Assembly: GCF_024223415.1 (NCBI RefSeq)
Contig: NZ_CP100500.1
DNA: 64,000 bases
Direction: 5' to 3' (one strand)
From: Escherichia coli
Lineage (GTDB): Bacteria; Pseudomonadota; Gammaproteobacteria; Enterobacterales; Enterobacteriaceae
Below are positions 29,342-53,136 of this stretch, piece after piece. The number at the start of each line of letters is the position of its first letter. Within the stretch, counting starts at the first letter, position 1. The position numbers and the translations under genes are program-made. The notes under the pieces were generated by a model, which was not told the origin of the DNA, did not search any database, and worked only from the letters and a program-made list of their open reading frames with translations.

Positions 29342-29757
29342 GTTTTGCCCTGAAACTGGCGCGCGAGATGGGGCGACCCGACTGGCGCGCCATGCTTGCC
29401 GGGATGTCATCCACGGAGTATGCCGACTGGCACCGCTTTTACAGTACCCATTATTTTCATGATGTTCTGCTGGATATGCACTTTTCCGGGCTGACGTACA
29501 CCGTGCTCAGCCTGTTTTTCAGCGATCCGGATATGCATCCGCTGGATTTCAGTCTGCTGAACCGGCGCGAGGCTGACGAAGAGCCTGAAGATGATGTGCT
29601 GATGCAGAAAGCGGCAGGGCTTGCCGGAGGCGTCCGCTTTGGCCCGGACGGGAATGAAGTTATCCCTGCATCCCCGGATGTGGCGGACATGACGGAGGAT
29701 GACGTAATGCTGATGACAGTATCAGAAGGGATCGCAGGAGGAGTCCGGTATGGCTGA
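28919..29757 (+). CDS. T: Tail assembly chaperone G-T fusion made by programmed -1 ribosomal frameshift at GGGAAAG (29312..29318)
   Basis: Slippery heptamer GGGAAAG near the end of G, with the -1 frame open through 29757 (ORF track 29323..29757), as for the lambda G/gpGT frameshift. Confidence 0.7.
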
Positions 29758-32329
29758 ACCGGTAGGCGATCTGGTCGTTGATTTAAGTCTGGATGCGGCC
29801 AGGTTTGACGAGCAGATGGCCAGAGTCAGGCGTCATTTTTCCGGTACGGAAAGTGATGCGAAAAAAACAGCGGCAGTCGTTGAACAGTCAATGAACCGGC
29901 AGGCGCTGGCTGCACAGAAAGCGGGGATTTCCGTCGGACAGTATAAAGCCGCCATGCGTATGCTGCCTGCACAGTTCACCGACGTGGCCACACAGCTTGC
30001 AGGCGGGCAGAGTCCGTGGCTGATCCTGCTGCAACAGGGTGGTCAGGTGAAGGACTCCTTCGGCGGGATGATCCCCATGTTCAGGGGGCTTGCCGGTGCG
30101 ATCACCCTGCCGATGGTCGGGGCCACCTCGCTGGCGGTGGCGACCGGTGCGCTGGCGTATGCCTGGTATCAGGGCAACTCAACCCTGTCCGATTTCAACA
30201 AAACGCTGGTCCTTTCCGGCAATCAGGCGGGACTGACGGCAGATCGTATGCTGGTCCTGTCCAGAGCCGGGCAGGCGGCAGGGCTGACGTTTAACCAGAC
30301 CAGCGAGTCACTCAGCGCACTGGTTAAGGCGGGGGTAAGCGGTGAGGCTCAGATTGCGTCCATCAGCCAGAGTGTGGCGCGTTTCTCCTCTGCATCCGGC
30401 GTGGAGGTGGACAAGGTCGCTGAAGCCTTCGGGAAGCTGACCACAGACCCGACGTCGGGGCTGACGGCGATGGCGCGCCAGTTCCATAACGTGACGGCGG
30501 AGCAGATTGCGTATGTTGCTCAGTTGCAGCGTTCCGGCGATGAGGCAGGGGCATTGCAGGCGGCGAACGAGGCCGCAACGAAAGGGTTTGATGACCAGAC
30601 CCGCCGCCTGAAAGAGAACATGGGCACGCTGGAGACCTGGGCAGACAGGACAGCGCGGGCATTCAAATCCATGTGGGATGCGGTGCTGGATATTGGTCGC
30701 CCGGACACTGCCCGGGAAATGCTGGAGAAAGCAGAAAAGGCTTTTGATGAGGCGGACAAAAAATGGCAGTGGTATCAGAGCCGGAGCCACCGGCGCGGTA
30801 AAGCCTCAGCATTTCTTGCCAATCTCCGGGGAGCATGGGAGGACAGAGCGAATGCGCAACTTGGGCTTTCAGCCGCCACGTTGCAGGCCGATCTTGAAAA
30901 GGCCAGAGAGATGGCAGCAAAGGACTGGGCCGACTCTGAGGCATCACGGCTGAAATATACCGAAGAGGCGCAGAAGGCTTACGAACGCCTGCAGACGCCG
31001 CTGGAGAAATATACCGCCCGTCAGGAAGAACTGAACAAGGCACTGAAAGACGGAAAAATCCTGCAGGCAGATTACAACACGCTGATGGCGGCGGCGAAAA
31101 AGGATTATGAAGCGACGCTGAAAAAGCCGAAACAGTCCGGCGTGAAGGTGTCTGCGGGCGATCGTCAGGAAGACAGTGCTCATGCCGCCCTGCTGACGCT
31201 TCAGGCAGAACTCCGGACGCTGGAGAAGCATGCCGGAGCAAATGAGAAAATCAGCCAGCAGCGCCGGGATTTGTGGAAGGCGGAGAGTCAGTTCGCGGTA
31301 CTGGAGGAGGCGGCGCAACGTCGCCAGCTGTCTGCACAGGAGAAATCCCTGCTGGCGCATAAAGATGAGACGCTGGAGTACAAACGCCAGCTGGCTGCAC
31401 TTGGCGACAAGGTTACGTATCAGGAGCGCCTGAACGCGCTGGCGCAGCAGGCGGATAAATTCGCACAGCAGCAACGGGCAAAACGGGCCGCCATTGATGC
31501 GAAAAGCCGGGGGCTGACTGACCGGCAGACAGAACGGGAAGCCACGGAACAGCGCCTGAAGGAACAGTATGGCGATAATCCGCTGGCGCTGAATAACGTC
31601 ATGTCAGAGCAGAAAAAGACCTGGGCGGCTGAAGACCAGCTTCGCGGGAACTGGATGGCAGGCCTGAAGTCCGGCTGGAGTGAGTGGGAAGAGAGCGCCA
31701 CGGACAGTATGTCGCAGGTAAAAAGTGCAGCCACGCAGACCTTTGATGGAATTGCACAGAATATGGCGGCGATGCTGACCGGCAGTGAGCAGAACTGGCG
31801 CAGCTTCACCCGTTCCGTGCTGTCCATGATGACAGAAATTCTGCTTAAGCAGGCAATGGTGGGGATTGTCGGGAGTATCGGCAGCGTCATTGGCGGTGCT
31901 GCCGGTGGTGGCGCATCAGTGTCAGGCGGTACAGCCATTCAGGCTGCTGCGGCAAAATTCCATTTTGCGACCGGAGGATTTACGGGAACCGGCGGCAAAT
32001 ATGAGCCAGCGGGGATTGTTCACCGTGGTGAATTTGTCTTCACGAAGGAGGCAACCAGCCGGATTGGCGTGGGGAATCTCTACCGGCTGATGCGCGGCTA
32101 TGCCACTGGTGGTTATGTCGGTGGCACCGGAAGTCCGGCGCAGATGCGGCGGGCTGAAGGCATTAATTTTAATCAGAACAATCACGTGGTGATTCAGAAC
32201 GACGGTACGAATGGTCTGCCAGGTCCACAGATGATGAAGGCAGTGTATGACATGGCCCGCAAGGGTGCCCGTGATGAAATTCAGGCACAGATGCGCGATG
32301 GTGGTCTGTTCTCCGGAGGTGGACGATGA
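29750..32329 (+). CDS. H: Tail tape-measure protein (lambda gpH-like)
   Basis: 859-aa ORF in the lambda H position with coiled-coil-rich middle and Gly-rich C-terminal region. Confidence 0.9.
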   Translation: MAEPVGDLVVDLSLDAARFDEQMARVRRHFSGTESDAKKTAAVVEQSMNRQALAAQKAGISVGQYKAAMRMLPAQFTDVATQLAGGQSPWLILLQQGGQVKDSFGGMIPMFRGLAGAITLPMVGATSLAVATGALAYAWYQGNSTLSDFNKTLVLSGNQAGLTADRMLVLSRAGQAAGLTFNQTSESLSALVKAGVSGEAQIASISQSVARFSSASGVEVDKVAEAFGKLTTDPTSGLTAMARQFHNVTAEQIAYVAQLQRSGDEAGALQAANEAATKGFDDQTRRLKENMGTLETWADRTARAFKSMWDAVLDIGRPDTAREMLEKAEKAFDEADKKWQWYQSRSHRRGKASAFLANLRGAWEDRANAQLGLSAATLQADLEKAREMAAKDWADSEASRLKYTEEAQKAYERLQTPLEKYTARQEELNKALKDGKILQADYNTLMAAAKKDYEATLKKPKQSGVKVSAGDRQEDSAHAALLTLQAELRTLEKHAGANEKISQQRRDLWKAESQFAVLEEAAQRRQLSAQEKSLLAHKDETLEYKRQLAALGDKVTYQERLNALAQQADKFAQQQRAKRAAIDAKSRGLTDRQTEREATEQRLKEQYGDNPLALNNVMSEQKKTWAAEDQLRGNWMAGLKSGWSEWEESATDSMSQVKSAATQTFDGIAQNMAAMLTGSEQNWRSFTRSVLSMMTEILLKQAMVGIVGSIGSVIGGAAGGGASVSGGTAIQAAAAKFHFATGGFTGTGGKYEPAGIVHRGEFVFTKEATSRIGVGNLYRLMRGYATGGYVGGTGSPAQMRRAEGINFNQNNHVVIQNDGTNGLPGPQMMKAVYDMARKGARDEIQAQMRDGGLFSGGGR

Positions 32330-32655
32330 AGACCTTCCGCTGGAAAGTGAAACCCGGTATGGATGTGGCTTCGGCCCCTTCCGTCAGGAAAGTGCGCTTT
32401 GGTGATGGCTATTCCCAGCGAGCGCCTGCCGGGCTGAATGCCGACCTGAAAACGTACAGCGTGACGCTTTCTGTCCCCCGTGAGGAGGCCACGGCGCTGG
32501 AGTCGTTTCTGGCTGAGCACGGGGGCTGGAAGGCCTTTCTGTGGACGCCGCCTTATGAGTGGCGGCAGATAAAGGTGACCTGCGCAAAATGGTCGTCGCG
32601 GGTCAGTATGCTGCGTGTTGAGTTCAGCGCAGAGTTTGAACAGGTGGTGAACTGA
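32326..32655 (+). CDS. M: Minor tail protein M
   Basis: 109-aa ORF in the lambda M position. Confidence 0.8.
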   Translation: MKTFRWKVKPGMDVASAPSVRKVRFGDGYSQRAPAGLNADLKTYSVTLSVPREEATALESFLAEHGGWKAFLWTPPYEWRQIKVTCAKWSSRVSMLRVEFSAEFEQVVN

Positions 32656-33353
32656 TGCAGGATATCCGGCAGGAAACACTGAATGAATGCACCCGTGCGG
32701 AGCAGTCGGCCAGCGTGGTGCTCTGGGAAATCGATCTGACAGAGGTCGGTGGCGAACGTTATTTTTTCTGTAATGAGCAGAACGAAAAAGGTGAGCCGGT
32801 CACCTGGCAGGAGCGGCAGTATCAGCCGTATCCCATTCAGGGGAGTGGTTTTGAACTGAATGGCAAAGGCACCAGTACGCGCCCCACGCTGACGGTTTCT
32901 AACCTGTACGGTATGGTCACCGGTATGGTGGAAGATATGCAGAGTCTGGTCGGCGGAACGGTGGTCCGGCGTAAAGTTTATGCCCGTTTTCTGGATGCGG
33001 TGAACTTCGTCAACGGAAACAGTGACGCCGATCCGGAGCAGGAGGTTATCAGCCGCTGGCGCATCGAGCAGTGCAGTGATTTGACAGCGGTCAGCGCGAC
33101 CTTTGTACTGGCCACGCCGACGGAAACGGACGGCGCTGTTTTTCCGGGACGTATTATGCTGGCCAACACCTGCACCTGGACCTATCGCGGTGACGAGTGC
33201 GGTTATAGCGGTCCGGCGGTCGCGGATGAATATGATCAGCCGACGTCCGATATCACGAAGGATAAATGCAGCAAATGCCTGAGCGGCTGTAAGTTTCGCA
33301 ATAACGTCGGCAACTTTGGCGGCTTCCTTTCCATTCACAAACTTTCGCAGTAA
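32655..33353 (+). CDS. L: Minor tail protein L
   Basis: 232-aa ORF with C-terminal cysteine cluster, lambda L position. Confidence 0.8.
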   Translation: MQDIRQETLNECTRAEQSASVVLWEIDLTEVGGERYFFCNEQNEKGEPVTWQERQYQPYPIQGSGFELNGKGTSTRPTLTVSNLYGMVTGMVEDMQSLVGGTVVRRKVYARFLDAVNFVNGNSDADPEQEVISRWRIEQCSDLTAVSATFVLATPTETDGAVFPGRIMLANTCTWTYRGDECGYSGPAVADEYDQPTSDITKDKCSKCLSGCKFRNNVGNFGGFLSIHKLSQ

Positions 33354-33357
33354 TTCC

Positions 33358-34101
33358 ATGACAGAGACAGAATCAGCGATTCTGGCGCACGCCCGGCGAT
33401 GTGCGCCAGCGGAGTCGTGCGGCTTCGTGGTGAGAGCGCCGGAGGGGGAAAGATATTTCCCCTGCGTGAATATCTCCGGTGAGCCGGAGGCGTATTTCCG
33501 GATGTCGCCGGAGGACTGGCTGCAGGCAGAGATGCAGGGTGAGATTGTGGCGCTGGTCCACAGTCACCCCGGTGGTCTGCCCTGGCTGAGTGAGGCCGAC
33601 CGGCGGCTGCAGGTGCAGAGTGATTTGCCGTGGTGGCTGGTCTGCCGGGGGGCGATTCACAAGTTCCGCTGTGTGCCGCATCTCACCGGGCGGTGCTTTG
33701 AGCACGGGGTGACGGACTGTTACACGCTGTTCCGGGATGCTTACCATCTGGCGGGAATTGAGATGCCGGATTTTCATCGCGGGGATGACTGGTGGCGTAA
33801 CGGTCAGAATCTCTATCTTGACAATATGGAGGCGACTGGTTTTTACCGTGTCGCACTGACAGAGGCGCAGCCCGGCGACGTGCTGCTGTGCTGTTTTGGT
33901 TCATCGGTGCCGAATCATGCCGCCATTTACTGCGGCGACGGCGGGCTGCTGCACCATATTCCTGAACAACTGAGCAAACGAGAGAGGTATACCGACAAAT
34001 GGCAGCGACGCACACACTCCCTCTGGCGTCACCGGGCATGGCACGCATCTGCCTTTACGGGGATTTGCAACGATTTGGCCGCCGCATCGACCTTCGTGTG
34101 A
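33358..34101 (+). CDS. K: Tail assembly protein K (JAB/MPN plus NlpC/P60-like domains)
   Basis: HSHP motif (JAB) and later Cys/His region; lambda K position; start ATG 33358. Confidence 0.8.
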   Translation: MTETESAILAHARRCAPAESCGFVVRAPEGERYFPCVNISGEPEAYFRMSPEDWLQAEMQGEIVALVHSHPGGLPWLSEADRRLQVQSDLPWWLVCRGAIHKFRCVPHLTGRCFEHGVTDCYTLFRDAYHLAGIEMPDFHRGDDWWRNGQNLYLDNMEATGFYRVALTEAQPGDVLLCCFGSSVPNHAAIYCGDGGLLHHIPEQLSKRERYTDKWQRRTHSLWRHRAWHASAFTGICNDLAAASTFV

Positions 34102-34646
34102 AAACGGGAGCCGAAGCCATCCGGGCGCTGGCCACGCAGCTCCCTGCGTTTCGTCAGAAACTGAGCGACGGCTGGTATCAGGTGCGTATTGCCGGGCGTG
34201 ATACAGGCGAAAACGAATTATCAGCCCGTCTTAATGAACCGCTGGCAAATGGTGCCGTGATCCACATCGTGCCGCGTCTGGCGGGAGCCAAACGTGGTGG
34301 TGTGTTTCAGGCAGTGCTGGGCGCGGCGCTGATTGCGGTGGCATGGTGGAACCCTGCAGGCTGGCTGGGGGCTGCGGCTTTATCGGGCATGTATGCGGCA
34401 GGGGCCAGTATGGTGCTCGGTGGTGTGGCGCAGATGCTGGCACCGAAAGCCAGAATGCCCGGAGTATCAGCCACGGATAACGGCAAACAGAACACCTATT
34501 TCTCCTCACTGGAAAACATGGTTGCCCAGGGGAATGCTCTGCCCGTTCTGTACGGTGAAATGCGCGTGGGGTCACGGGTAATTTCGCAGGAGATCAGCAC
34601 AGCGGATGAGGGGGATGGCGTCCGGGTTGTGGTGATTGGTCGCTGA
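33999..34646 (+). CDS. I: Tail assembly protein I
   Basis: 215-aa ORF in the lambda I position. Confidence 0.75.
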   Translation: MAATHTLPLASPGMARICLYGDLQRFGRRIDLRVKTGAEAIRALATQLPAFRQKLSDGWYQVRIAGRDTGENELSARLNEPLANGAVIHIVPRLAGAKRGGVFQAVLGAALIAVAWWNPAGWLGAAALSGMYAAGASMVLGGVAQMLAPKARMPGVSATDNGKQNTYFSSLENMVAQGNALPVLYGEMRVGSRVISQEISTADEGDGVRVVVIGR

Positions 34647-34706: not shown

Positions 34707-37700
34707 ATGGGTAAAGGCAGCAGTAAGGGGCATACCCCGCGCGAAGCGAAGGACAACCTGAAGTCCACGCAGTTGCTGAGTGTGATCGATGTCATCAGCG
34801 AAGGGCCGATACAAGGACCGGTGGATGGATTAAAAAGCGTGCTGCTGAACGGTACGCCGGTGCTGGACAGTGAGGGGAATACCAATATATCCGGCGTCAC
34901 GGTGGTATTCCGGGCCGGTGAGCAGGAGCAGACGCCGCCGGAGGGATTTGAATCCTCCGGCTCCGAGACGGTGCTGGGTACGGAAGTGAAGTACGACACG
35001 CCGATTACCCGGACCATCACGTCGGCAAACATCGACCGTCTGCGCCTGACCTTCGGTGTGCAGGCACTGGTGGAAACCACCTCAAAGGGGGACCGGAATC
35101 CGTCGGAAGTCCGCCTGCTGGTTCAGATACAGCGTAACGGTCGCTGGTTAACGGAAAAAGACATCACCATTAAGGGAAAAACCACTTCACAGTATCTGGC
35201 TTCGGTGGTGGTGGATAACCTGCCGCCGCGCCCGTTCAGTATCCGGATGCGCAGGATGACACCGGACAGCACCACAGACCAGCTGCAGAACAAAACGCTC
35301 TGGTCGTCATACACCGAAATCATCGATGTGAAACAGTGCTACCCGAACACGGCACTGGTCGGTGTGCAGGTGGATTCGGAGGAGTTCGGCAGCCAGCAGG
35401 TGAGCCGTAATTATCATTTTCGCGGGCGCATTCTGCAGGTGCCGTCGAACTATAACCCGCAGACGCGGCAATACAGCGGTATCTGGGACGGAACGTTTAA
35501 ACCGGCATACAGCGATAACCCGGCCTGGTGTCTGTGGGATATGCTGACCCACCCGCGCTACGGCATGGGGAAACGTGTTGGCGCAGCGGATGTGGACAAA
35601 TGGGCGCTGTATGTCATCGGCCAGTACTGCGACCAGTCGGTGCCGGACGGCTCTGGTGGCACGGAGCCGCGCATCACCTGTAATGCCTGGCTGACCAGGC
35701 AGCGTAAGGCGTGGGATGTGCTCAGTGATTTCTGCTCGGCGATGCGCTGTATGCCGGTATGGAACGGGCAGACGCTGACGTTCGTGCAGGACCGACCGTC
35801 GGATAAGGTGTGGACCTATAACCGCAGTAATGTGGTGATGCCGGATGATGGCGCGCCGTTCCGCTACAGCTTCAGCGCCCTGAAGGACCGCCATAATGCC
35901 GTTGAGGTGAACTGGAGTGACCCGGATAACGGCCAGGAGACGGCGACAGAGCTTGTGGAGGACACGCAGGCCATTGCCCGTTACGGTCGTAACGTCACGA
36001 AGATGGATGCCTTTGGCTGTACCAGCCGGGGGCAGGCACACCGCGCCGGGCTGTGGCTGATTAAAACAGAACTGCTGGAGACGCAGACCGTGGATTTCAG
36101 CGTGGGTGCTGAAGGGCTTCGCCATGTACCGGGCGATGTCATTGAAATCTGTGATGATGACTATGCCGGTATCAGCACCGGTGGTCGTGTGCTGGCGGTG
36201 AACAGCCAGACCCGGACGCTGACGCTCGACCGTGAAATCACGCTGCCATCCTCCGGTACCACGCTGATAAGTCTGGTTGACGGAAGTGGCAATCCGGTCA
36301 GCGTGGAGGTTCAGTCCGTCACCGACGGCGTGAAGGTAAAAGTGAGCCGGGTTCCTGACGGCGTTGCCGAGTACAGCGTGTGGGGGCTGAAGCTGCCGAC
36401 GCTGCGCCAGCGCCTGTTCCGCTGCGTGAGTATCCGTGAGAACGACGACGGCACGTATGCCATCACTGCCGTGCAGCATGTACCGGAAAAAGAGGCCATC
36501 GTGGATAACGGGGCGCACTTTGACGGCGACCAGAGCGGAACGGTGAATGGTGTCACGCCGCCAGCGGTGCAGCACCTGACCGCAGAAGTCACCGCAGACA
36601 GCGGGGAATATCAGGTGCTGGCGCGCTGGGACACGCCGAAGGTGGTGAAGGGCGTGAGCTTCCTGCTTCGCCTGACCGTGGCCGCGGATGACGGCAGTGA
36701 GCGGCTGGTCAGCACGGCCCGGACGACGGAAACCACATACCGCTTCAGGCAGCTGGCGCCGGGGAACTACAGGCTGACAGTCCGGGCAGTAAATTCCCGG
36801 GGGCAGCAGGGAGACCCGGCGTCGGTATCGTTCCGGATTGCCGCACCGGCAGCGCCGTCGCGGATTGAGCTGACGCCGGGCTATTTTCAGATAACCGCCA
36901 CGCCGCATCTTGCCGTTTATGATCCGACGGTACAGTTTGAGTTCTGGTTTTCGGAAAAGCGGATTACCGATATCAGGCAGGTTGAAACCACAGCCCGTTA
37001 TCTTGGTACCGGAAGTCAGTGGCTTGTCTCCGGCCAGAATATTAAACCTGGCCATGATTATTACTTTTATATCCGCAGTGTTAACACTGTCGGTAAATCG
37101 GCATTCGTGGAGGCAGTCGGTCGGGCGAGTAATGATCCTGCCGGTTACCTTAATTTTTTCAGGGGGGCGATAAATAAAACGCATCTGGGACGGGAGATCA
37201 ATGAACGCATTGATGCCTCTGCACTGCGCACTGAAGTTGAGCAACTGGAGAATGAGATTAACCGCGAAATGACGCAGCTGGAGAAAGATGTGAGGCAGCG
37301 TGCGGAGCGTGATATCGCCGAGGTGACGAAAAAAATCACGGCGTCTGAAAACAGCATAACGGAACTGGTGGCGAAAAAGAGCGGTGAACAGTCGCTGGCC
37401 ATTGCGAAAGTCGACAGGAAAGTTGACAGCGTGAGCAGTGAAATCCGGCAGACAGTGAGCAGGAGCACGGAGGAGAACAGCCGACAGATAGCGCAGGTCA
37501 GGCAGTATGTTGATGATAAAAGTGCGCAAATAAGTACTGTTGTGGCGAAAAAGAGCGCTGAACAGTCAATGGCCATTGCGGAAGTTGACAGAAAAGTTGA
37601 CAGGATGGGAAGCGAAATCCGGCAGACAGTAAGCAGGAGCACGGAGGAGAACAGCCGACAGATAGCGCAGATCAGACAGTATGTTGATGATAAGGGAAGT

Positions 37701-38216
37701 CAGATCAAACAGAGCACGGATAAAAAACTGGGATCCTGGAATGCCAGCATTGAGCAGATACAGAAAGTTCAGGAGGACACGCGCCGGAACCTGAACAGCA
37801 TGTGGGCTGTGAAGCTGCAGCAGACACGGGATGGACGTCTCTATATTGCAGGTATTGGTGCCGGAATCGAAAATACGTCTGACGGAATTCAGAGTCAGAT
37901 CCTGATGCAGGCAGATCGTATTGCGATGATTAACCCGGAAAATGGCAATACAACACCTTTGTTTGTGGCTCAGGGTGATCAGCTGTTCATGAATGATGTT
38001 TTCATGAAAAAACTGACCGTGGATTTTGCCAGAGTGACGGGAGATATCCGGTCAGATAATTTTCATTCCGGTAGTCCGGGGTGGCGTTTATCAAGAAACG
38101 GCAGCCTTGAAATTAACTCAGGAAGGCCCGGCGCAGGCCGCCTGTTTTTCAATGGCGAGCGAATCGACGTATATGACGATAACAATGTGTTAAGAGTACG
38201 ACTGGGGAGACTGTAA
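34707..38216 (+). CDS. J: Central tail fibre / host-specificity protein (lambda gpJ-like) with an internal ~174-bp tandem duplication (about 37368..37716) and a C-terminal region I cannot match to lambda J
   Basis: 1169-aa ORF in the lambda J position; tandem repeat read directly. Confidence 0.85.
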
Positions 38217-38476
38217 TGTTCGGAGTCCGGGTATGGCGCAAAGGGCGCCTTGTGACACATGAAATAAACCCAACAGGGGTGCTGGATGTGATCACTGAAG
38301 GGACGGGGCAGCGTTCTTATACTCCTTTGCAGGGCTGGCGTCTGGAAGTCTGTTCACCGGCCATTCTGATTAACGGTCAGGGAAGTCATACCAGTGCCAG
38401 TGTATCCGGCTGGACAGTGCACTATGCCAACACAAGCTGGCTAAGACCCGTGCTGGTCATGATAAGGGGGATCTGA
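38216..38476 (+). CDS. Hypothetical protein downstream of J
   Basis: 86-aa ORF, start overlapping the J stop. Confidence 0.4.
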   Translation: MFGVRVWRKGRLVTHEINPTGVLDVITEGTGQRSYTPLQGWRLEVCSPAILINGQGSHTSASVSGWTVHYANTSWLRPVLVMIRGI

Positions 38477-39138
38477 TGTTTGCACTTAAATTAACTGATG
38501 AGCGGGGGAGAGAATGGATATCACCTGTTGCGCCGCCACTGAACCTTGTGCGCCGTTTTCATTTCACACTGAGTGCGCGTGATGCGGTGATGCAGTTTAT
38601 CGACACCGGGGTGCCGACGAATTATCGTTGCGTGATTTTTATTAAACAGATAAGCGGTAATCAGTCCTTCCATGGTGAAATGGTTCAGCTTAACGGTACC
38701 TGGCAGTATGACATTTTCAGCGCTGGTACAGGGCAGGAGCCGGGCATGGAACAGGACAGCACATATGTTGTTTATGTTTTTGCCAACATGGTGAATGTAT
38801 GGCCGCAATGGGGAATACAGTTGTGCGACAGTCATGGCAGGGTGGTCTGGAACACGGAAATGCTGCCACTGGAAGTAAAAATGACGCGAATATGGGAAAA
38901 GGATGTACCGATCAGTGTGGGACATGATGTGGCCGTAATGCCGGGGTGTACCCAGTGGACGACAGTTCAGGAAGGGGAGAGTTATTACTGGTATACCGCC
39001 AGTTTTAATGCCAGAAACTCACAGTTATGGCGTCAGTCAACTTTTGCTGAAGATAACGTAGCGGCGCCCAATGATAATTCAGGTGTTGTTAATAACCTCT
39101 GTTATTACATAAATGCAGAAATTTATGATGCGTACTGA
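38476..39138 (+). CDS. Hypothetical protein downstream of J
   Basis: 220-aa ORF, translationally coupled to the upstream ORF. Confidence 0.45.
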   Translation: MFALKLTDERGREWISPVAPPLNLVRRFHFTLSARDAVMQFIDTGVPTNYRCVIFIKQISGNQSFHGEMVQLNGTWQYDIFSAGTGQEPGMEQDSTYVVYVFANMVNVWPQWGIQLCDSHGRVVWNTEMLPLEVKMTRIWEKDVPISVGHDVAVMPGCTQWTTVQEGESYYWYTASFNARNSQLWRQSTFAEDNVAAPNDNSGVVNNLCYYINAEIYDAY

Positions 39139-39477: not shown

Positions 39478-41292
39478 ATGGCGGCTGTAAAAATTTCAGG
39501 CGTGCTGAGGGACGGAACCGGAAAACCGGTACCGGGATGCATTATTGAGCTGAAAGCGAAGAGAACCAGCGAGACAGTCATCGCCACGACAGTGGCTTAT
39601 GGCATGCCGGAAGAGACGGGGAGTTACAGTATGGATGTGGAGCCAGGAATATACAGGGTGACACTCAATACAGAAGGTTACCGTCCTTCGTATGTGGGAG
39701 ATATCGTGGTCAGGGAGGATTCTTCACCGGGAACACTGAATAAATTTCTGATGGAGATGGAAGATGCTCCTTATTATCCGAAGGCGTTGTCAGAGCTGGA
39801 GGCTGTGGTGCAGTCCATACTGCACAGAGCAGAGTCCGCGGCATCTGAGGCGGAGGAAGCCCGGAAACGAGCAGCATCTGCCCGGGGACCACGAGGAGAG
39901 AAAGGGGATACCGGCGCTCGTGGTGAAAGAGGCATTACCGGGCCACAGGGGCCAAAAGGTGAAACAGGAGCACGTGGCCCGGCAGGACCACAGGGACCAA
40001 AAGGTGAAACAGGTGAACGCGGTCCGGCAGGTCCACAGGGACTAAAGGGCGATACAGGTGAACGCGGCCCGGCAGGTCCACAGGGACCAAAGGGTGAAAC
40101 AGGTGCACGCGGCCCGGCAGGTCCACAGGGAGCAAAGGGCGAAACAGGTGAACGCGGCCCGGCAGGTCCACAGGGAGCAAAGGGCGAAACAGGTGCACGT
40201 GGTCCGGAAGGCCCTCAGGGTCTGAAGGGAGAAAAGGGTGAGCGAGGAGAAAAAGGCCCTAAGGGGGATAAAGGAGATCCGGGAGGTCCACAGGGACCAA
40301 AGGGGGATACAGGTGAACGCGGCCCGGCAGGTCCACAGGGATCAAAGGGCGATACAGGTGAACGTGGCCCGGCAGGTCCTCAGGGACCAAAGGGGGATAC
40401 AGGTGAACGTGGCCCGGAAGGTCCACAGGGAGCAAAGGGTGAAACAGGTGAACGCGGCCCGGCAGGACCACAGGGACCAAAAGGTGAAACAGGTGAACGC
40501 GGTCCGACAGGTCCACAGGGAGCAAAAGGTGAAACAGGAGCACGCGGTCCGGCAGGTCCTCAGGGACCAAGAGGAGAGTCAGCCCGTGGACAACTGCTGA
40601 ATGGTGATCTGAACCGACTGGGACGAGTGACCGATCAGGGTGATTATTATCAGCCATCAGACAGTGGGGCTACACGAGAAAATAATTATCCGATTCAGAG
40701 AGCGGGTTATCTTCAGGTAAGAGTTGGTGCATGGGGATATTGCCAGCATGAATATACAACCTGGAACCCACCACGAAAGTTCGTAAGAACTGTTACTGGT
40801 AATTTTACCGGTAATGGCCCCTGGTCTGAATGGAAAGAGCTGGGAGCCCAGGGGGAGCGTGGTCCACAGGGACCAAAAGGTGAAACAGGTGCACGCGGTC
40901 CGGCAGGTCCACAGGGACTAAAGGGCGAAACAGGTGCACGTGGCCTGGCAGGTCCTCGGGGGCCAAGAGGGTATACAGGTGAACGCGGCCCGGCAGGTCC
41001 ACAGGGGCCAAGAGGAGAAGCGGGGCGGCCAGCGAGCGTCGGAAGTGTTTATTCCGTGGGGTCTTATGTTCTGGGGATCATAGAACGAAATCATGAGATA
41101 ACAAATACCCGTCAAATACCCGGGTATCGTATCAGACAGGCCGTTATTGTGTCGTCGTCATCGGATAAACTTACAGATATCCGCTTTTTATTTGGCAATC
41201 CTATGCTTGGTACATGGATGTTATGCACAACTAACATGACGGTGAATAATATCAGTGGGACGATTTGGGGCCTGTTTCAGAGAATACTGTGA
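39478..41292 (+). CDS. stf: Side tail fibre protein (Stf-like N-terminus) with long collagen-like Gly-X-Y repeat region
   Basis: N-terminus [18 protein letters not shown] resembles lambda Stf; two blocks of GXY triplets ([19 protein letters not shown]...). Confidence 0.8.
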
Positions 41293-42321: not shown

Positions 42322-43731
42322 ATGAAATTTATAATGGCAAAGAATGTATTGGCAATGGCGGTTACCGGTGCGCTGTTATGTTACTCTGTGGGGGTTATGG
42401 CAGAAGAGAGTTTTAATGTAGATGGATATGAGGTTACTCTGTATGATAATGGTGCGGCAGTAATATCAAAAGGTAATGATGTTAATCTTATTAATACTAT
42501 TACTGGAGCTAATACAGGGCGTATTGTCCCGAATGATTCTATTACGCGTGCTATATTAGCAGCTCCTGAGAATGCTAGGCATATTGTTGCTCAGGATTTG
42601 CTAACTTACCCCATCTACTCAGATGCATTAAAAGCCGAAAACATCAGAAATATAAAAGCAGAAGATATAAAGTCCATTGTTGATACAAAAGAATCACTAC
42701 AAAAAATAATCAAGCCAGAAAACAAGGATGATTATATCGCCGCTGTTAATGCTGGTGGTACCGCTGAGGATTTTATTAAAATTAGTAATACAACATCGGG
42801 ATTGTCATCATTGTATAAAAATGTAGTTGAAGGCCAGAATTTTGTTCTGGATTCATCAGGCCGAATCACTGCTGACGGAAGGGCTGACGGAAATGCTCAG
42901 ACAGTCCCTGTTAAAGAATTCGTCGTGGAGCTGGATAATCGTACCCGCAACCTTGGGGTTGAAGTGAAATCACAGGGAGACAGTCTGCGTGGTGAGATAG
43001 GTGGTGTATACAGAGATGCCCGTGCTCATACTGACAGTCAGGTCACAGCAGTACGTGATGAACTGAAGGCAGAGGGAGACAGTCTGCGCGGTGAGATAGG
43101 CGGTGTATACAGAGATGCCCGTGCTCATACTGACAGTCAGGTTACAGCAGTACGTGATGAACTCAGCAGGGATATTATTGCAGGCACATCGGCAGCGGTG
43201 GCGTATACGGATGCATCTTCTCTTGCTCTTCAGGATGAAATAAAAGAAAAAGCGGATGAAACAGTTCAGGTTTCCCGGGCTTATACAGATAAAAGTGTAC
43301 GGGATGCCCGTAAAGAAGCGAAAAGCCAGGCAGAACATCTCAGCGATGTGCTTGTGAAGAACAGGGCGCAGACGGATGCAGCAATAGCCTCAAATACAGC
43401 AGCGATAAGGAATAACAGTCATCGTCTGGATTTGACGGAAGCCTGGCAGAAGATGGCGACAGAGAGAATGAATAATATGCAGGAGCAGATTAAAGAGAAC
43501 CGGAAGGAGTTAAGGGAGAGTGCAGCCCAGAGCGCGGCACTGGCCGGTCTTTTCCAGCCATACAGTGTTGGAAAATTTAACGCGACAGCAGCCGTTGGTG
43601 GTTACCGTGATGAGCAGGCCATTGCGGTGGGCGTGGGCTACCGTTTCACAGAGAATGTGGCAGGAAAAGTTGCAGTTGCTGCAGGTGGGTCATCCGCATC
43701 GTGGAATGCTGGTGTGAATTTTGAGTTCTGA
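42322..43731 (+). CDS. Trimeric autotransporter adhesin-like protein (YadA-like C-terminal anchor); resembles prophage-encoded Eib immunoglobulin-binding proteins
   Basis: Signal peptide; coiled-coil stalk with 33-aa tandem repeat; C-terminal anchor [10 protein letters not shown] ... [20 protein letters not shown]. Confidence 0.7.
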
Positions 43732-49248: not shown

Positions 49249-52200
49249 ATGATGGAAATTCTGCGTGGTTCGCCTGCATTGTCGGCATTCCGAATCAACA
49301 AACTGCTGGCACGTTTTCAGGCTGCCAGGCTCCCGGTTCACAATATTTACGCCGAGTATGTCCATTTTGCTGACCTCAATGCGCCGTTAAACGATGATGA
49401 GCACGCACAACTTGAACGCCTGCTGAAATATGGCCCGGCACTCGCCAGCCACGCCCCGCAAGGCAAACTCCTGCTGGTGACCCCGCGTCCTGGCACCATC
49501 TCTCCCTGGTCTTCGAAAGCGACCGATATTGCCCATAACTGCGGGCTACAACAGGTAAACCGCCTTGAGCGCGGCGTTGCTTACTATATAGAAGCCGGTA
49601 CGCTGACCAATGAACAATGGCAGCAGGTTACCGCTGAACTGCACGACCGCATGATGGAAACGGTCTTTTTTGCTTTAGATGATGCAGAGCAGTTGTTTGC
49701 CCACCATCAACCGACTCCGGTTACCAGCGTTGATTTGCTGGGGCAGGGCCGTCAGGCGCTGATCGACGCTAACCTGCGTCTTGGCCTGGCTCTGGCGGAA
49801 GATGAAATTGACTATCTGCAGGATGCTTTCACAAAGCTTGGTCGTAACCCGAACGACATCGAGCTGTATATGTTCGCTCAGGCGAACTCCGAGCACTGCC
49901 GCCACAAAATTTTTAACGCCGACTGGATTATCGACGGTGAACAACAGCCGAAATCGCTGTTCAGGATGATCAAAAATACTTTCGAAACCACGCCAGATCA
50001 CGTTCTCTCTGCTTATAAAGATAACGCCGCCGTAATGGAAGGTTCTGAAGTGGGCCGCTACTTTGCTGACCACGAAACGGGCCGCTACGATTTCCATCAG
50101 GAACCGGCGCATATTCTGATGAAAGTCGAAACTCACAACCACCCGACGGCGATTTCTCCGTGGCCGGGCGCGGCGACCGGTTCTGGCGGCGAAATTCGTG
50201 ATGAAGGCGCCACCGGACGCGGTGCGAAACCGAAGGCTGGTCTGGTTGGTTTCTCCGTATCCAACCTGCGAATTCCTGGCTTCGAACAGCCGTGGGAAGA
50301 AGATTTCGGTAAGCCTGAGCGCATTGTCACCGCGCTGGACATCATGACCGAAGGCCCGCTGGGCGGTGCGGCGTTTAACAACGAATTTGGTCGTCCGGCA
50401 CTGAACGGCTACTTCCGTACTTATGAAGAAAAAGTGAACAGCCACAATGGCGAAGAGCTGCGCGGTTATCACAAACCGATCATGCTGGCGGGCGGGATCG
50501 GCAACATTCGCGCCGATCACGTACAAAAAGGCGAGATCAACGTCGGTGCGAAGCTGGTCGTTCTCGGCGGCCCGGCAATGAACATCGGTCTTGGCGGCGG
50601 AGCGGCGTCTTCCATGGCGTCAGGTCAGTCTGATGCCGACCTCGACTTTGCTTCCGTACAGCGCGACAACCCGGAGATGGAGCGTCGCTGCCAGGAAGTG
50701 ATCGACCGTTGCTGGCAGCTTGGTGATGCCAACCCAATCCTGTTTATCCACGACGTCGGCGCTGGCGGTCTTTCTAACGCGATGCCGGAACTGGTGAGCG
50801 ATGGCGGGCGCGGCGGTAAATTTGAACTGCGCGATATTCTAAGCGACGAACCGGGCATGAGCCCGCTGGAAATCTGGTGTAACGAATCCCAGGAACGCTA
50901 CGTGCTGGCGGTTGCTGCCGATCAATTACCGCTGTTTGACGAACTGTGTAAGCGTGAGCGCGCACCCTACGCGGTGATTGGTGAAGCGACCGAAGAACTG
51001 CATCTTTCTCTGCACGATCGTCATTTTGATAATCAGCCGATCGATCTGCCGCTGGACGTCCTGCTTGGTAAAACGCCGAAGATGACCCGCGATGTACAAA
51101 CGCTGAAAGCGAAGGGCGATGCGCTGGTCCGTGAAGGGATCACCATTGCAGACGCGGTGAAACGCGTACTGCATCTGCCGACCGTGGCGGAGAAAACTTT
51201 CCTGGTGACCATCGGTGACCGCAGCGTAACCGGCATGGTGGCGCGCGATCAGATGGTGGGGCCGTGGCAGGTGCCGGTCGCTAACTGCGCGGTCACTACC
51301 GCCAGCCTCGACAGCTACTACGGTGAAGCGATGGCGATTGGCGAGCGTGCGCCGGTTGCGCTGCTGGATTTCGCCGCCTCTGCCCGTCTGGCGGTCGGTG
51401 AAGCGTTAACCAATATTGCCGCAACACAGATTGGCGATATCAAACGCATTAAACTTTCCGCCAACTGGATGGCGGCGGCAGGCCACCCTGGTGAAGATGC
51501 GGGCCTGTATGAAGCCGTTAAAGCCGTGGGCGAAGAGCTTTGTCCGGCGCTGGGCCTGACGATCCCGGTGGGTAAAGACTCTATGTCGATGAAAACCCGC
51601 TGGCAGGAAGGTAACGAAGAGCGCGAAATGACGTCGCCGCTGTCGCTGGTGATTTCTGCATTTGCCCGCGTGGAAGATGTACGTCACACCATCACGCCGC
51701 AGCTTTCTACCGAAGATAACGCACTGCTGCTGATTGATTTGGGCAAAGGCAATAACGCGCTGGGCGCAACGGCGCTGGCGCAGGTTTATCGTCAGCTTGG
51801 CGACAAACCGGCAGATGTACGCGATGTCGCGCAACTGAAAGGCTTCTATGACGCGATTCAGGCGCTGGTTGCACAGCGTAAGCTGCTGGCGTATCACGAC
51901 CGCTCTGATGGCGGTCTGCTGGTAACGCTGGCGGAAATGGCCTTTGCTGGTCATTGTGGCATTGACGCGGATATCGCCACTCTGGGTGACGATCGCCTGG
52001 CGGCGTTGTTTAACGAAGAACTGGGTGCGGTGATTCAGGTTCGTGCCGCTGACCGTGAAGCGGTCGAGTCCGTACTGGCACAGCATGGGCTTGCGGATTG
52101 CGTCCATTATGTTGGGCAGGCGGTTTCCGGTGACCGTTTTGTGATTACCGCCAACGGGCAGACTGTATTCAGCGAAAGCCGCACTACGTTGCGTGTCTGG

Positions 52201-53136
52201 TGGGCAGAAACTACCTGGCAGATGCAGCGCCTGCGTGACAACCCGGAGTGTGCCGACCAGGAGCACCAGGCGAAATCAAACGACGCCGATCCTGGCCTGA
52301 ATGTGAAACTGTCGTTCGATATCAACGAAGATGTGGCAGCACCGTATATTGCCACTGGCGCACGTCCGAAAGTTGCCGTGCTGCGTGAGCAGGGCGTGAA
52401 CTCGCATGTTGAAATGGCGGCAGCTTTCCACCGTGCGGGCTTCGATGCTATCGACGTGCATATGAGTGACCTGCTGACTGGACGCACGGGACTGGAGGAT
52501 TTTCACGCCCTGGTCGCGTGCGGAGGTTTCTCCTACGGTGATGTGCTGGGTGCCGGTGAAGGTTGGGCGAAGTCTATCCTGTTCAATGACCGTGTACGCG
52601 ATGAGTTTGCAACCTTCTTCCATCGTCCGCAAACGCTGGCTCTGGGGGTATGTAACGGTTGCCAGATGATGTCTAACCTGCGTGAACTGATCCCGGGGAG
52701 CGAGTTGTGGCCACGTTTTGTGCGCAATACCTCCGATCGCTTTGAAGCGCGTTTCAGCCTGGTAGAAGTAACCCAAAGCCCGTCTCTGCTGTTGCAGGGG
52801 ATGGTGGGCTCGCAAATGCCGATTGCTGTCTCTCACGGTGAAGGGCGCGTTGAAGTACGCGATGCGGCGCATCTGGCGGCGCTGGAAAGCAAAGGGCTGG
52901 TGGCGCTGCGCTACGTCGATAACTTCGGCAAAGTCACCGAAACCTACCCGGCTAACCCGAACGGTTCCCCGAACGGTATTACTGCGGTCACTACCGAAAG
53001 CGGTCGTGTCACCATTATGATGCCGCACCCGGAACGTGTATTCCGTACCGTCAGCAACTCCTGGCATCCGGAAAACTGGGGGGAAGATGGTCCGTGGATG
53101 CGCATTTTCCGCAATGCGCGTAAGCAGCTGGGGTAA
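49249..53136 (+). CDS. purL: Phosphoribosylformylglycinamidine synthase
   Basis: 1295-aa ORF starting [26 protein letters not shown]; C-terminal glutamine amidotransferase region. Confidence 0.95.

What the first reader, a model, noticed from the sequence alone, without database searches (positions are those of the whole stretch)
37368..37716. Tandem ~174-bp duplication inside the J tail-fibre gene
Two consecutive ~58-aa units ([55 protein letters not shown] and a near-identical copy) occur in the distal part of J, ahead of a C-terminal region I cannot match to lambda J. Repeat expansion in a receptor-binding fibre can change fibre length and is a substrate for recombinational host-range switching.
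Basis: seen in the sequence. Interest (0 to 1): 0.4.

Follow-up and report, generated by a model that had tools for sequence, protein, structure and literature searches.

The report
Repeat-lengthened shaft of phage tail fibre
A real, in-frame 58-amino-acid tandem duplication lengthens the helical shaft of a lambda-like prophage's central tail fibre, and related E. coli prophages carry one, two or three copies; it is a modest variant of a well-known protein, not a new system.

Summary
Window 37368-37715 holds two head-to-tail 174-bp (58-aa) units (TRF score 554, 90% match) inside an intact 1169-aa gpJ homologue (34707-38216).

The units lie in the alpha-helical shaft between the FNIII domains and the beta-prism fibre. 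This shaft is about 53 aa in lambda and about 215 aa here. Each 58-aa unit is itself two older 29-aa repeats, with a hydrophobic period of 29/8 = 3.625.

Copy number varies among E. coli prophages. About 750 complete genomes carry a 73%-identical shaft with one unit. Twenty-two carry the window type, with two units, or three in two genomes. A separate 11-aa duplication also varies. All indel lengths (11, 29, 58) keep the coiled-coil register.

Most likely the repeat is a length module: about 8.7 nm of rod per copy, gained by slippage or unequal crossing-over. It does not carry the sequence motif of the F7-pyocin fold-switching shaft.

The non-lambda C-terminus is a T1/phi24B-type tip. It is followed by two small genes that probably encode a separate receptor-binding pair. 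Tip swapping happens downstream of the repeat, at a conserved FMNDVF motif, not within it.

Interest is low to moderate: a new variant of a known kind.

The parts
34707..38216 (+). gpJ homologue (central tail fibre / tip attachment protein), 1169 aa, intact
   Evidence: ORF list, translation, Pfam domains. The first ~2480 nt are ~94% identical to J of phages ev099 and cdtI.
37158..37802 (+). Alpha-helical shaft (AHS), about J 818-1032. It is built of seven 29-residue repeats from J 830.
   Evidence: Alignment with lambda J, whose AHS is residues 809-861 (PMC11101478). Hydrophobic period 3.625. BLOSUM autocorrelation peaks at lag 29, z about 6.5. AF2 monomer model is helical over J 840-993.
37242..37307 (+). 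Older pair of 11-aa (hendecad) repeats [11 protein letters not shown] / [11 protein letters not shown]. The first is absent from single-copy shafts and is duplicated again in some alleles.
   Evidence: Clean 11-aa gap against CFT073, 2014C-3097 and P0014. An extra 33-nt copy flanked by the direct repeat CAGCTGGAGAA is present in L002, L003 and L004.
37368..37541 (+). Repeat copy 1 (c1), J 888-945, equal to two 29-aa sub-repeats
   Evidence: TRF
37542..37715 (+). Repeat copy 2 (c2), J 946-1003. Its 3' end continues into the ancestral downstream sequence.
   Evidence: TRF
37716..37802 (+). Last 29-aa repeat of the shaft (J 1004-1032). It is homologous to lambda J ~837-861, the part that turns into beta strands when lambda binds LamB.
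   Evidence: PDB sequence matches to lambda gpJ; PMC11101478. The AF2 model predicts strands from J 999.
37749..38012 (+). Beta-prism central straight fibre (Phage_Tail_Tip domain), up to the conserved [10 protein letters not shown] motif. The module junction is at about 38008.
   Evidence: Pfam PF09327 at J 1015-1140. Genomes H80-H92 match the query only up to position 809, which is window 38008. Alignment.
38016..38213 (+). Short C-terminal tip domain (about J 1104-1169) of the T1 gp33 / DEV gp56 / SU10 / phi24B-needle type, not the lambda RBD
   Evidence: PDB sequence matches to 9l9p_S, 9ze4_N, 7z4b_EA and 23gd_D. 813 phage records cover at least 80% of the 108-aa C-terminal query, which runs from the end of the beta-prism through this tip.
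38252..38476 (+). 74-aa ORF (86 aa if started at 38216, which overlaps the J stop). Candidate adaptor of a tip-bound receptor-binding pair.
   Evidence: 64% identical partner in L016, in the same position after a 421-aa J-like needle. No Pfam or PHROG family.
38476..39138 (+). 220-aa ORF whose start overlaps the preceding stop. Candidate receptor-binding protein, homologous to 933W p65 / phi24B gp54.
   Evidence: phrog_425. 52% identical homologue in L016-L018. 26% identity, E 8e-16, to 933W p65. 23% identity to bas04_0023, which lies next to the J-like gene of BtuB-dependent Bas04.

Best explanation
The 348-bp array is an in-frame tandem duplication of a 58-residue block (two 29-residue structural repeats) in the trimeric alpha-helical shaft of the gpJ central tail fibre. 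The shaft is a rod with a non-heptad hydrophobic period of 29/8 = 3.625 residues. Adding 58 residues (16.0 turns), or 11 residues (3.03 turns), therefore lengthens the rod without breaking the core register.

Each 58-aa copy should add about 8.7 nm (58 x 0.15 nm). That makes this shaft roughly 23-32 nm, against about 8 nm in lambda. The tip, with its probably separately encoded receptor-binding pair, is held farther from the tail cone.

Copies are gained, and presumably lost, by replication slippage or unequal crossing-over between the repeats. This produces the 1-, 2- and 3-copy alleles seen in E. coli prophages.

Shown: the duplication, its position in the shaft, the 29-residue substructure, the copy-number polymorphism, the register-preserving indel lengths, and the c1-c1-c2 structure of the 3-copy alleles. 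Inferred: the trimeric coiled-coil state, the length change in the virion, and any benefit such as reaching outer-membrane receptors through O-antigen or capsule.
For: The repeat is real and in frame.

Position. Lambda J aligns on both sides of a gap of about 170 aa that holds the repeats. The flank after the repeat matches lambda J 837-881. PMC11101478 names lambda 809-861 the alpha-helical shaft.

Helical state. The hydrophobicity spectrum peaks at 3.625 over J 830-1030. The AF2 model has one helix over J 840-993. There is a weak Apolipoprotein-like Pfam hit at 839-1016.

29-residue substructure. BLOSUM autocorrelation peaks at lag 29 (z 6.4-6.7; 0 of 500 shuffles reach it at any lag). The next peaks are 58 and 11. 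This holds in the window shaft with c1 removed and in two single-copy shafts.

Polymorphism. Shaft length from GKSAFVEA to MWAVK is 66 aa in lambda, 94 in phage 21, 168 in CFT073/PhiR40_1/2014C-3097, 236 in the window, 247 in GF60 and 305 in ECCNB12-2/AR_0085. The window differs from single-copy shafts by exactly two clean gaps of 11 and 58 aa. Only 7 of 69 possible lengths stay within 15 degrees of register, and 11, 29 and 58 are among them.

Mechanism. The 3-copy alleles read c1-c1-c2 at 30 diagnostic sites. Units begin with an identical 16-nt run. The 33-nt duplication is flanked by an 11-nt direct repeat.

Frequency. 22 complete genomes have the window type, against about 750 with a single-copy relative at ~73% nt identity.
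Against: No trimer structure or electron micrograph exists for this protein. The AF2 model is a monomer with only moderate confidence: mean pLDDT 69, and 44-58 in the 10-residue blocks at the two ends of the repeat region (J 881-910 and 971-1000). No phenotype is linked to copy number. The same 2-copy shaft occurs with two different tips, so length is not visibly coupled to receptor type. Several carrier prophages look degraded: frameshifted K and terminase in Ch1, and IS elements next to J in L002, L003 and L006. Some alleles may therefore be drifting rather than selected. The homologous shaft in F7 pyocin is not a passive spacer but a fold-switching element (PMC12874032).
Confidence: 0.7

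Rival explanations
1. The repeat extends a metastable fold-switching element. As in the F7 pyocin central fibre, the coiled coil would convert to a beta-prism on receptor binding. Extra units would then add stored energy, or extra prism layers, rather than simply length.
For: The repeat is in the position homologous to the F7 pyocin 163-residue switching coiled coil, directly upstream of a beta-prism seed (PMC12874032). [quoted passage not shown] The AF2 model predicts strands for the last 29-mer, J 999-1023. The window tip is weakly related to the F2-pyocin fibre 25vf_A (E 0.043).
Against: The published switch motif SxSxxMxxLxS is not enriched in the window shaft: 2 full matches against 2.3-2.4 expected, z about -0.2. 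The same scan is clearly positive in distant homologues with the same tip: P0176 z 6.5, P0160 4.7, P0186 4.4. The window shaft has 8% Ala and 29% K+E+R, against 18-24% Ala in those homologues. AF2 with an alignment keeps J 840-993 helical. The F7 authors state that lambda and T5 do not show the extensive switch.
Confidence: 0.12
2. The duplication is a selectively neutral length polymorphism in a tolerant spacer. It would be carried by prophages that are partly decaying, with no effect on adsorption or host range.
For: The allele is rare: 22 of about 770 genomes with this shaft family. Non-synonymous differences between copies are not depleted (12 against 9 synonymous codons). Several carriers have frameshifts or IS insertions in or next to the tail genes.
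Against: Every observed indel (11, 11, 58, 58, and 29-aa steps against phage 21) has a register-preserving length, which argues that the fibre must still assemble. J and the tail genes are intact in the window. The shaft has grown repeatedly over time: 53, then about 80, about 150, about 215 and about 285 aa.
Confidence: 0.15
3. The repeats are recombination substrates that drive host-range switching by exchanging receptor-binding modules.
For: The shaft and its distal parts are mosaic. The same shaft is found with two unrelated C-termini. The shaft itself is bounded upstream by a break in similarity at about 37188.
Against: The exchange junction with the alternative RBD is at about 38008, after FMNDVFMK and roughly 300 nt downstream of the repeat. 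Engineered gpJ chimeras likewise use a conserved stretch near lambda residue 964 (PMC11338833). Recombination within the repeats is only seen to change copy number (c1-c1-c2).
Confidence: 0.03
4. The duplication is an assembly artefact.
For: Tandem repeats can be mis-assembled. Many database proteins from this region are fragments from short contigs. One database protein (P0121) carries suspicious extra 29-aa duplications.
Against: The two copies differ at 30 of 174 nt, which mis-assembly of a single copy cannot produce. The same pair occurs in 22 complete genomes and 2 IMG/VR contigs.
Confidence: 0.01

Closest known systems
Lambda gpJ alpha-helical shaft (AHS, residues 809-861) of the central tail fibre (PDB 8IYK, 8XCG, 8XCJ; PMC11101478)
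   Same: Same protein family and the same position: after FNIII-2 and before the beta-prism straight fibre. Flanking sequences align (HLGxE... upstream, NAS..MWAVK..DG..YxAGIG downstream).
   Different: The lambda shaft is about 53 aa and has no internal repeats. The window shaft is about 215 aa, built of seven 29-aa repeats, with a recent 58-aa duplication. Lambda continues into a fused LamB-binding RBD, which the window lacks.
Single-copy long-shaft J of E. coli prophages and phages (CFT073 WP_000514735.1, strain 2014C-3097, phages PhiR40_1 and PhiR49_2)
   Same: Same shaft architecture and the same 58-aa unit (37-40 of 58 identical). The shaft differs from the window's only by the 11-aa and 58-aa insertions. 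Present in about 750 of 5426 complete E. coli genomes.
   Different: One unit instead of two; about 73% nt identity; lambda/21-type fused RBDs.
T1 gp33 central fibre (PDB 9L9P; PMC11945409)
   Same: A J-like protein whose unresolved C-terminal third is predicted as a long alpha/beta fibre (about 37 nm), longer than lambda's. Its last ~265 residues align with the window J through to the C-terminus (E 2e-19).
   Different: No evidence of the 58-aa unit. It belongs to Drexlerviridae, a lytic phage family.
[quoted passage not shown]
   Same: A long coiled coil in the homologous position upstream of a beta-prism, with a distantly related tip.
   Different: The defining SxSxxMxxLxS pattern and the Ala-rich composition are absent from the window shaft.
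phi24B/933W needle gp56-gp55-gp54 and DEV gp56-gp55-gp54 receptor-binding fibres; Drexlerviridae 'bona fide RBP locus' downstream of gpJ (10.64898/2026.04.10.717836; PMC12892993; PMC8594841)
   Same: A fibre ending in the same short tip, followed by a ~75-aa and a ~205-220-aa gene with overlapping stop and start codons. The 220-aa protein is homologous to 933W p65.
   Different: Here the module is grafted onto a full lambda-type J with a long repeat shaft. The receptor is unknown. The 74-aa protein has no detectable similarity to the 933W 75-aa protein.
In-frame duplications and deletions in the lambda tape-measure protein gpH that change tail length (Katsura and Hendrix; cited from my own knowledge, not checked here)
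   Same: The length of a helical phage protein is set by residue number and can be changed by in-frame internal duplications.
   Different: A different protein with a different role: a ruler for tube length rather than an external fibre.

Membership tests
gpJ / tip attachment protein J (lambda-type central tail fibre) | Domain set: hub domains, FNIII/Ig domains and the tail-tip fibre domain | tested here: met
   Pfam FNIII-A_GpJ 6.8e-41, Phage-tail_3 1.2e-40, Ig_J 9.9e-43, Ig_J_second 3.3e-40, Phage_Tail_Tip 2.3e-34
gpJ / tip attachment protein J (lambda-type central tail fibre) | Gene order: tape measure, M, L, K, I, J, then side tail fibre genes | tested here: met
   ORFs at 29750-34646 precede J. 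The tape-measure protein was confirmed by Pfam. The M-I order rests on ORF positions and on the annotation of the near-identical locus L001; it was not tested on the window. An Stf-like gene at 39478-41292 and an assembly gene follow.
gpJ / tip attachment protein J (lambda-type central tail fibre) | Fused C-terminal Ig-like receptor-binding domain, as in lambda | tested here: not met
   The alignment ends at [10 protein letters not shown]. The window has a 66-aa tip instead of lambda's RBD of about 190 aa.
Trimeric alpha-helical coiled-coil shaft (AHS) | Helical secondary structure with a regular hydrophobic periodicity | tested here: met
   Periodicity peak at 3.625; AF2 helix over J 840-993
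Trimeric alpha-helical coiled-coil shaft (AHS) | Parallel trimer in the virion | not testable with these tools
   Only monomer prediction is available. The trimeric state is inferred from lambda gpJ structures (PMC11101478).
F7-pyocin-type fold-switching central fibre | Long coiled coil directly upstream of a beta-prism seed | tested here: met
   PMC12874032
F7-pyocin-type fold-switching central fibre | Recurrent SxSxxMxxLxS pattern with Ala-rich 'S' positions | tested here: not met
   2 matches against 2.3-2.4 expected. Positive controls gave z 4-6.5.
F7-pyocin-type fold-switching central fibre | Both coiled-coil and prism conformations predicted or observed for the trimer | not testable with these tools
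   Needs AlphaFold-multimer, AF3 or cryo-EM
J-like fibre with a separately encoded receptor-binding pair (phi24B gp56-55-54, DEV gp56-55-54, Drexlerviridae RBP locus) | Conserved short C-terminal tip domain ending ...VYDxNxxLRVRLGxL | tested here: met
   Matches to T1 gp33, DEV gp56 and the SU10 fibre, and to the L016 needle
J-like fibre with a separately encoded receptor-binding pair (phi24B gp56-55-54, DEV gp56-55-54, Drexlerviridae RBP locus) | Two small genes immediately downstream, translationally coupled, that travel with the tip across phage types | tested here: met
   Overlapping stop and start at 38476, and possibly at 38216. The same pair follows a 421-aa needle in L016-L018. The same layout is seen in 933W and Roth85.
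J-like fibre with a separately encoded receptor-binding pair (phi24B gp56-55-54, DEV gp56-55-54, Drexlerviridae RBP locus) | The small proteins are virion components that bind the receptor | not testable with these tools
   Proposed, not proven, even for phi24B (10.64898/2026.04.10.717836)
Copy-number-variable tandem repeat generated by slippage or unequal crossing-over | Alleles that differ by whole units, with the new copy identical to a neighbour | tested here: met
   2- and 3-copy alleles; the 3-copy alleles read c1-c1-c2; a 16-nt identical run at unit starts

The most novel reading that the evidence does not exclude
The shaft of gpJ-type central fibres may be a quantised, fast-evolving length dial. 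Its 29-residue (8-turn) modules would be added or removed by recombination between the repeats. Selection would tune the reach of the tip to the thickness of the host's O-antigen or capsule layer, or to the length of the co-encoded side fibres. Alternatively it would tune the energy and extent of an alpha-to-beta switch that opens the tail. Under this reading the 1-, 2- and 3-copy alleles are adaptive variants rather than drift.
Probability: 0.15. Interest if true: 0.55.

Novelty: new variant of a known kind. Interest (0 to 1): 0.3.

Why it matters
If shaft length affects adsorption, then repeat number in J would be a simple sequence-readable trait to consider alongside the receptor-binding tip when predicting or engineering the host range of lambda-like particles, for example gpJ chimeras used as delivery vehicles. 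The register rule found here (only 11-, 29- and 58-residue steps) gives a practical recipe for lengthening or shortening such fibres without breaking them. The repeat also explains why this part of J is so often fragmented in short-read assemblies. Beyond that, the finding is an ordinary example of modular growth of a coiled-coil fibre.

Tried and rejected
1. F7-pyocin-type fold switch. I scanned for SxSxxMxxLxS in both orientations. There was no enrichment in the window, while distant homologues served as positive controls. I kept this only as a minor rival.

2. Assembly artefact. Rejected because the copies have diverged and the pair recurs in many genomes.

3. Recombination hotspot for RBD swapping. 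Rejected because the junction is at about 38008.

4. Solved structure for the repeat itself. The PDB sequence search found none; only the flanks match lambda J.

5. Close relatives of the repeat in sequenced phages. megablast found none. tblastn found only PhiR40_1 and PhiR49_2 at 57% identity, both single-copy.

6. A one-copy allele of the window type, which would be the reciprocal crossover product. None is present among complete E. coli genomes.

7. P0121, a 538-aa database protein with an extra 29-aa duplication in the shaft. It would be a neat intermediate. However, it also has a 29-aa duplication in the beta-prism part and is not traceable to a contig, so I treated it as a possible artefact and did not use it.

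8. Antisense ORFs across the repeat (35307-37529, 740 aa; 37145-37642, 165 aa). They have no Pfam family. A similar antisense ORF exists in lambda J but not in CFT073 J, so they are probably a compositional by-product.

9. Receptor assignment for the 220-aa protein. There are only distant links, to BtuB-dependent Bas04 and to BamA-dependent 933W/phi24B, which is too weak to call.

10. Literature search for a described J-shaft repeat polymorphism. Nothing was found.
Full report
**1. The observation**

Tandem Repeats Finder reports one strong array at 37368-37693: period 174, 1.9 copies, 90% matches, no indels, score 554. Read in frame, the two full units are 37368-37541 and 37542-37715. The peptides are [58 protein letters not shown] and [58 protein letters not shown]. 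They share 144/174 nt and 46/58 aa. Nine codons differ synonymously and 12 non-synonymously, and the last 7-8 codons are the most diverged.

The array lies in ORF 34707-38216 (+), 1169 aa. This ORF matches all the Pfam domains of the lambda tip attachment protein J. It follows the tape-measure gene and ORFs in the positions of the M-L-K-I tail genes.

**2. Where in J the repeat lies**

The first ~2480 nt of the gene are about 94% identical to J of sequenced lambdoid phages such as ev099 and cdtI. Similarity breaks at about 37188.

In an alignment with J of lambda, phage 21 and phi458, the window has about 170 extra residues. They fall between the conserved HLGxE... motif after the second FNIII/Ig domain and the conserved NAS..MWAVK..DG..YIAGIG motif. 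PDB sequence searches match only the flanks: window J 801-838 to lambda about 797-834, and window about 1008-1112 to lambda 837-941.

The lambda cryo-EM paper names the lambda stretch 809-861 the alpha-helical shaft (AHS). It is a three-helix bundle between FNIII-2 and the beta-prism central straight fibre (PMC11101478). The repeat therefore lies in the shaft, not in the receptor-binding part.

An AlphaFold2 monomer model built on a 20-sequence alignment gives one helix over J 840-993 and strands from J 999 on. Mean pLDDT is 69, so confidence is moderate.

**3. Anatomy of the shaft**

Written in rows of 29 from residue 830, the shaft stacks as seven rows. Positions 12, 15, 19 and 26 are mostly I or V in the five rows from J 859 to 1003 and are looser in the first and last rows. 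The hydrophobicity spectrum over J 830-1030 peaks at 3.625 residues, which is 29/8.

BLOSUM62 autocorrelation peaks at lag 29 (z 6.4-6.7; 0 of 500 shuffles reach it at any lag). The next peaks are at 58 and 11. This holds in the window shaft with copy 1 removed and in two independent single-copy shafts. The 58-aa unit is therefore a doublet of an older 29-aa repeat. The shaft is a non-heptad coiled-coil-like rod with 8 turns per 29 residues; that last step is inferred.

**4. Relatives and copy number**

Complete E. coli genomes fall into two groups.

- Twenty-two carry the window-type shaft at 95% identity or more.
  - Five genomes match the whole 1017-nt query colinearly, so they have the window's layout of two units and the short tip; I inspected one of them (L001).
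  - Two more have two units, the short tip and an extra 11-aa tandem copy of LENAINREMTQ (GF60 and OY754357; GF60 = L004 inspected).
  - Two have three units plus that 11-aa copy (ECCNB12-2 and AR_0085, J 1238 aa; L002 and L003).
  - Thirteen records have two units joined to a long lambda/phage-21-type RBD; L005 and L006 were inspected.
- About 750 genomes, including CFT073, S88, IAI39 and ST131 strains, carry a shaft about 73% identical in DNA. In these the matched record span is 174 nt shorter than the query span.

The three members of the second group that I inspected have exactly one unit: CFT073, strain 2014C-3097 and phage PhiR40_1. A local alignment shows that the window differs from these single-copy shafts by two clean gaps of 11 and 58 residues. 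Phage 21 differs from them by further gaps that include two of 29 residues.

Shaft length from GKSAFVEA to MWAVK forms a series: 66 aa (lambda), 94 (phage 21), 168 (single-copy), 236 (window), 247 (GF60) and 305 (three-copy). Two IMG/VR contigs also carry the two-copy allele.

No window-type one-copy allele was found. No sequenced phage in the INPHARED set has the two-copy form.

**5. How copies arise**

At the 30 sites that distinguish copy 1 from copy 2, the three-copy alleles read c1-c1-c2. Both units begin with the same 16-nt run, GTGGCGAAAAAGAGCG, and share a 39-nt identical core. The 33-nt duplication is flanked by the 11-nt direct repeat CAGCTGGAGAA. A few single diagnostic sites are exchanged between copies in some genomes.

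This pattern is what replication slippage or unequal crossing-over between short direct repeats produces. That mechanism is inferred from the pattern.

With a period of 29/8, lengths of 29 and 58 residues shift the core by 0 degrees and 11 residues shifts it by 12 degrees. Only 7 of the 69 lengths between 1 and 69 stay within 15 degrees. All indels seen here belong to that set, which argues that only register-preserving changes survive.

**6. Most likely function**

The simplest reading is that the repeat is a length module of a rod. At 0.15 nm per residue, each 58-aa copy adds about 8.7 nm and each 11-aa copy about 1.7 nm. The window shaft would then be roughly 23 nm (the AF2 helix) to 32 nm (all seven rows), against about 8 nm in lambda.

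In lambda the central fibre holds the tail about 17 nm above the surface before it bends aside (PMC12617516). T1 gp33 is predicted to protrude about 37 nm (PMC11945409). A longer shaft would therefore change the stand-off distance and reach of the tip. This might matter on hosts with O-antigen or capsule, but that is speculation.

I put 0.7 on this spacer model. The structural facts are solid; the phenotypic consequence is untested.

**7. The main rival: an F7-pyocin-like fold switch**

A 2026 preprint shows that the homologous 163-residue coiled coil of the F7 pyocin central fibre converts to a beta-prism and drives tape-measure ejection. The preprint defines a recurring SxSxxMxxLxS pattern (PMC12874032).

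I scanned for the pattern in both orientations. The window shaft has 2 full matches against 2.3-2.4 expected (z about -0.2). Distant homologues that share the window's tip are clearly enriched (z up to 6.5) and are Ala-rich at 18-24%. The window shaft has 8% Ala and 29% K+E+R.

The defining sequence feature is therefore not met. Only the last 29-mer, which is outside the duplication, corresponds to the small lambda segment (841-861) that becomes beta strands on LamB binding; AF2 also predicts strands there. I keep the fold-switch reading at about 0.12.

**8. The other rivals**

- A neutral polymorphism cannot be excluded (about 0.15). The allele is rare, and several carriers show frameshifts or IS elements near J.
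- An assembly artefact is excluded by the divergence of the copies and their recurrence.
The same two-copy shaft occurs with two different C-termini, and the junction is at about 38008, right after FMNDVFMK and roughly 300 nt downstream of the repeat.

**9. The C-terminus that does not match lambda**

The last ~66 residues ([16 protein letters not shown]...[17 protein letters not shown]) match the C-termini of four solved chains: T1 gp33 (9L9P), DEV gp56 (9ZE4), the SU10 tail tip fibre (7Z4B) and a J-like gp24 (23GD). Among sequenced phages, 813 records cover at least 80% of a 108-aa query that runs from the end of the beta-prism through this tip.

J is followed by a 74-aa ORF (86 aa if it starts at the J stop) and a 220-aa ORF whose start overlaps the previous stop. 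The same pair, at 64% and 52% identity, follows a 421-aa J-like needle in Stx-phage-like E. coli contigs. Phage 933W has the same layout: a 422-aa fibre, a 75-aa gene and a 205-aa gene. Its 205-aa protein is homologous to the window's 220-aa protein over the N-terminal 160 residues (26% identity, E 8e-16). Klebsiella phage Roth85 has a J-like gene followed by 102-aa and 219-aa genes. A distant homologue lies beside the J-like gene of BtuB-dependent Bas04.

For phi24B, extra density at the needle tip was attributed to a gp54 (204 aa) / gp55 (75 aa) heterodimer and proposed to bind BamA (10.64898/2026.04.10.717836). For DEV, gp56-gp55-gp54 form a receptor-binding fibre for LptD (PMC12892993). 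For Drexlerviridae, the locus downstream of gpJ determines the receptor (PMC8594841; 10.64898/2026.04.02.716166).

The window J is therefore most likely a carrier for a separately encoded receptor-binding pair. The receptor cannot be assigned from these data.

**10. Novelty and verdict**

The protein family, the long helical shaft and modular tips are all known. The single-copy version of this shaft is common in E. coli. What appears to be undescribed is the 29/58-residue repeat structure of the shaft and its copy-number polymorphism (1, 2 or 3 units, plus an 11-aa module) with register-preserving steps. Two literature searches found nothing on it.

I rate it a new variant of a known kind, with interest 0.3.

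Noticed in passing
window 38216/38252-38476 and 38476-39138: Two small translationally coupled ORFs (74/86 aa and 220 aa) follow J. They travel as a pair with the short fibre tip across unrelated phage types: Stx-phage-like contigs L016-L018, 933W p64/p65 and Klebsiella phage Roth85. They are probably a phi24B gp55/gp54-like receptor-binding pair. The receptor is unknown.
   Followed up: partly
window ~38008 (J ~1100, after FMNDVFMK): This is a module junction. Thirteen complete-genome records carry the same two-copy shaft fused to a long lambda/phage-21-type RBD instead of the short tip (L005 J is 1302 aa; L006 J is truncated by an IS66 element).
   Followed up: yes
window 37242-37307; L002, L003 and L004: A second, independent polymorphism. 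An 11-aa (33-nt) hendecad unit LENxINREMTQ is absent from single-copy shafts, present once in the window, and present twice in GF60, ECCNB12-2 and AR_0085. It is flanked by the direct repeat CAGCTGGAGAA.
   Followed up: yes
window 35307-37529 (-) and 37145-37642 (-): Long antisense ORFs (740 aa and 165 aa) overlap J and the repeat. They have no Pfam family. Lambda J has a similar 564-aa antisense ORF, but the more divergent CFT073 J has none of 250 aa or more. This is probably a by-product of codon composition.
   Followed up: partly
window 42322-43731: A 469-aa ORF with a C-terminal YadA-like membrane anchor lies downstream of the tail fibre assembly gene. It looks like a prophage-borne trimeric autotransporter (Eib-like moron). 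The related locus in strain Ch1 is annotated the same way.
   Followed up: no
window 49249-53136: purL (FGAR amidotransferase). It marks chromosomal DNA beyond the prophage end, so this prophage sits at a different site from the related one in strain Ch1 (between mlrA/yohO and btsS).
   Followed up: no
database proteins P0121 and P0124: P0121 is 98% identical to the window J C-terminus. It has an extra 29-aa duplication in the shaft (between the IAEV and IAKV motifs of adjacent 29-mers) and another 29-aa duplication in the beta-prism part. P0124 (phage-21 type) has a 50-aa internal duplication. These could be real intermediates or assembly artefacts. P0121 could not be traced to a contig.
   Followed up: partly
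protein search hits P0002-P0120: Most database proteins covering this region are fragments from contigs of about 0.5-2 kb, with hundreds to thousands of members. Short-read assemblies evidently break in the distal part of J, probably because of the repeats and of J paralogues in poly-lysogens.
   Followed up: no
distant homologues P0160, P0176, P0186, P0200, P0222, P0239: Fibres from other bacteria that share the window's tip domain have Ala/Ser/Thr-rich shafts significantly enriched in the F7-pyocin fold-switch motif SxSxxMxxLxS (z 4-6.5). The motif scan therefore works as a quick classifier, and the E. coli lambdoid shafts form a compositionally distinct, charged class.
   Followed up: partly
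window 35148-35190: A short 22-bp tandem repeat (1.9 copies, 80% match, TRF score 56) lies in the N-terminal part of J.
   Followed up: no
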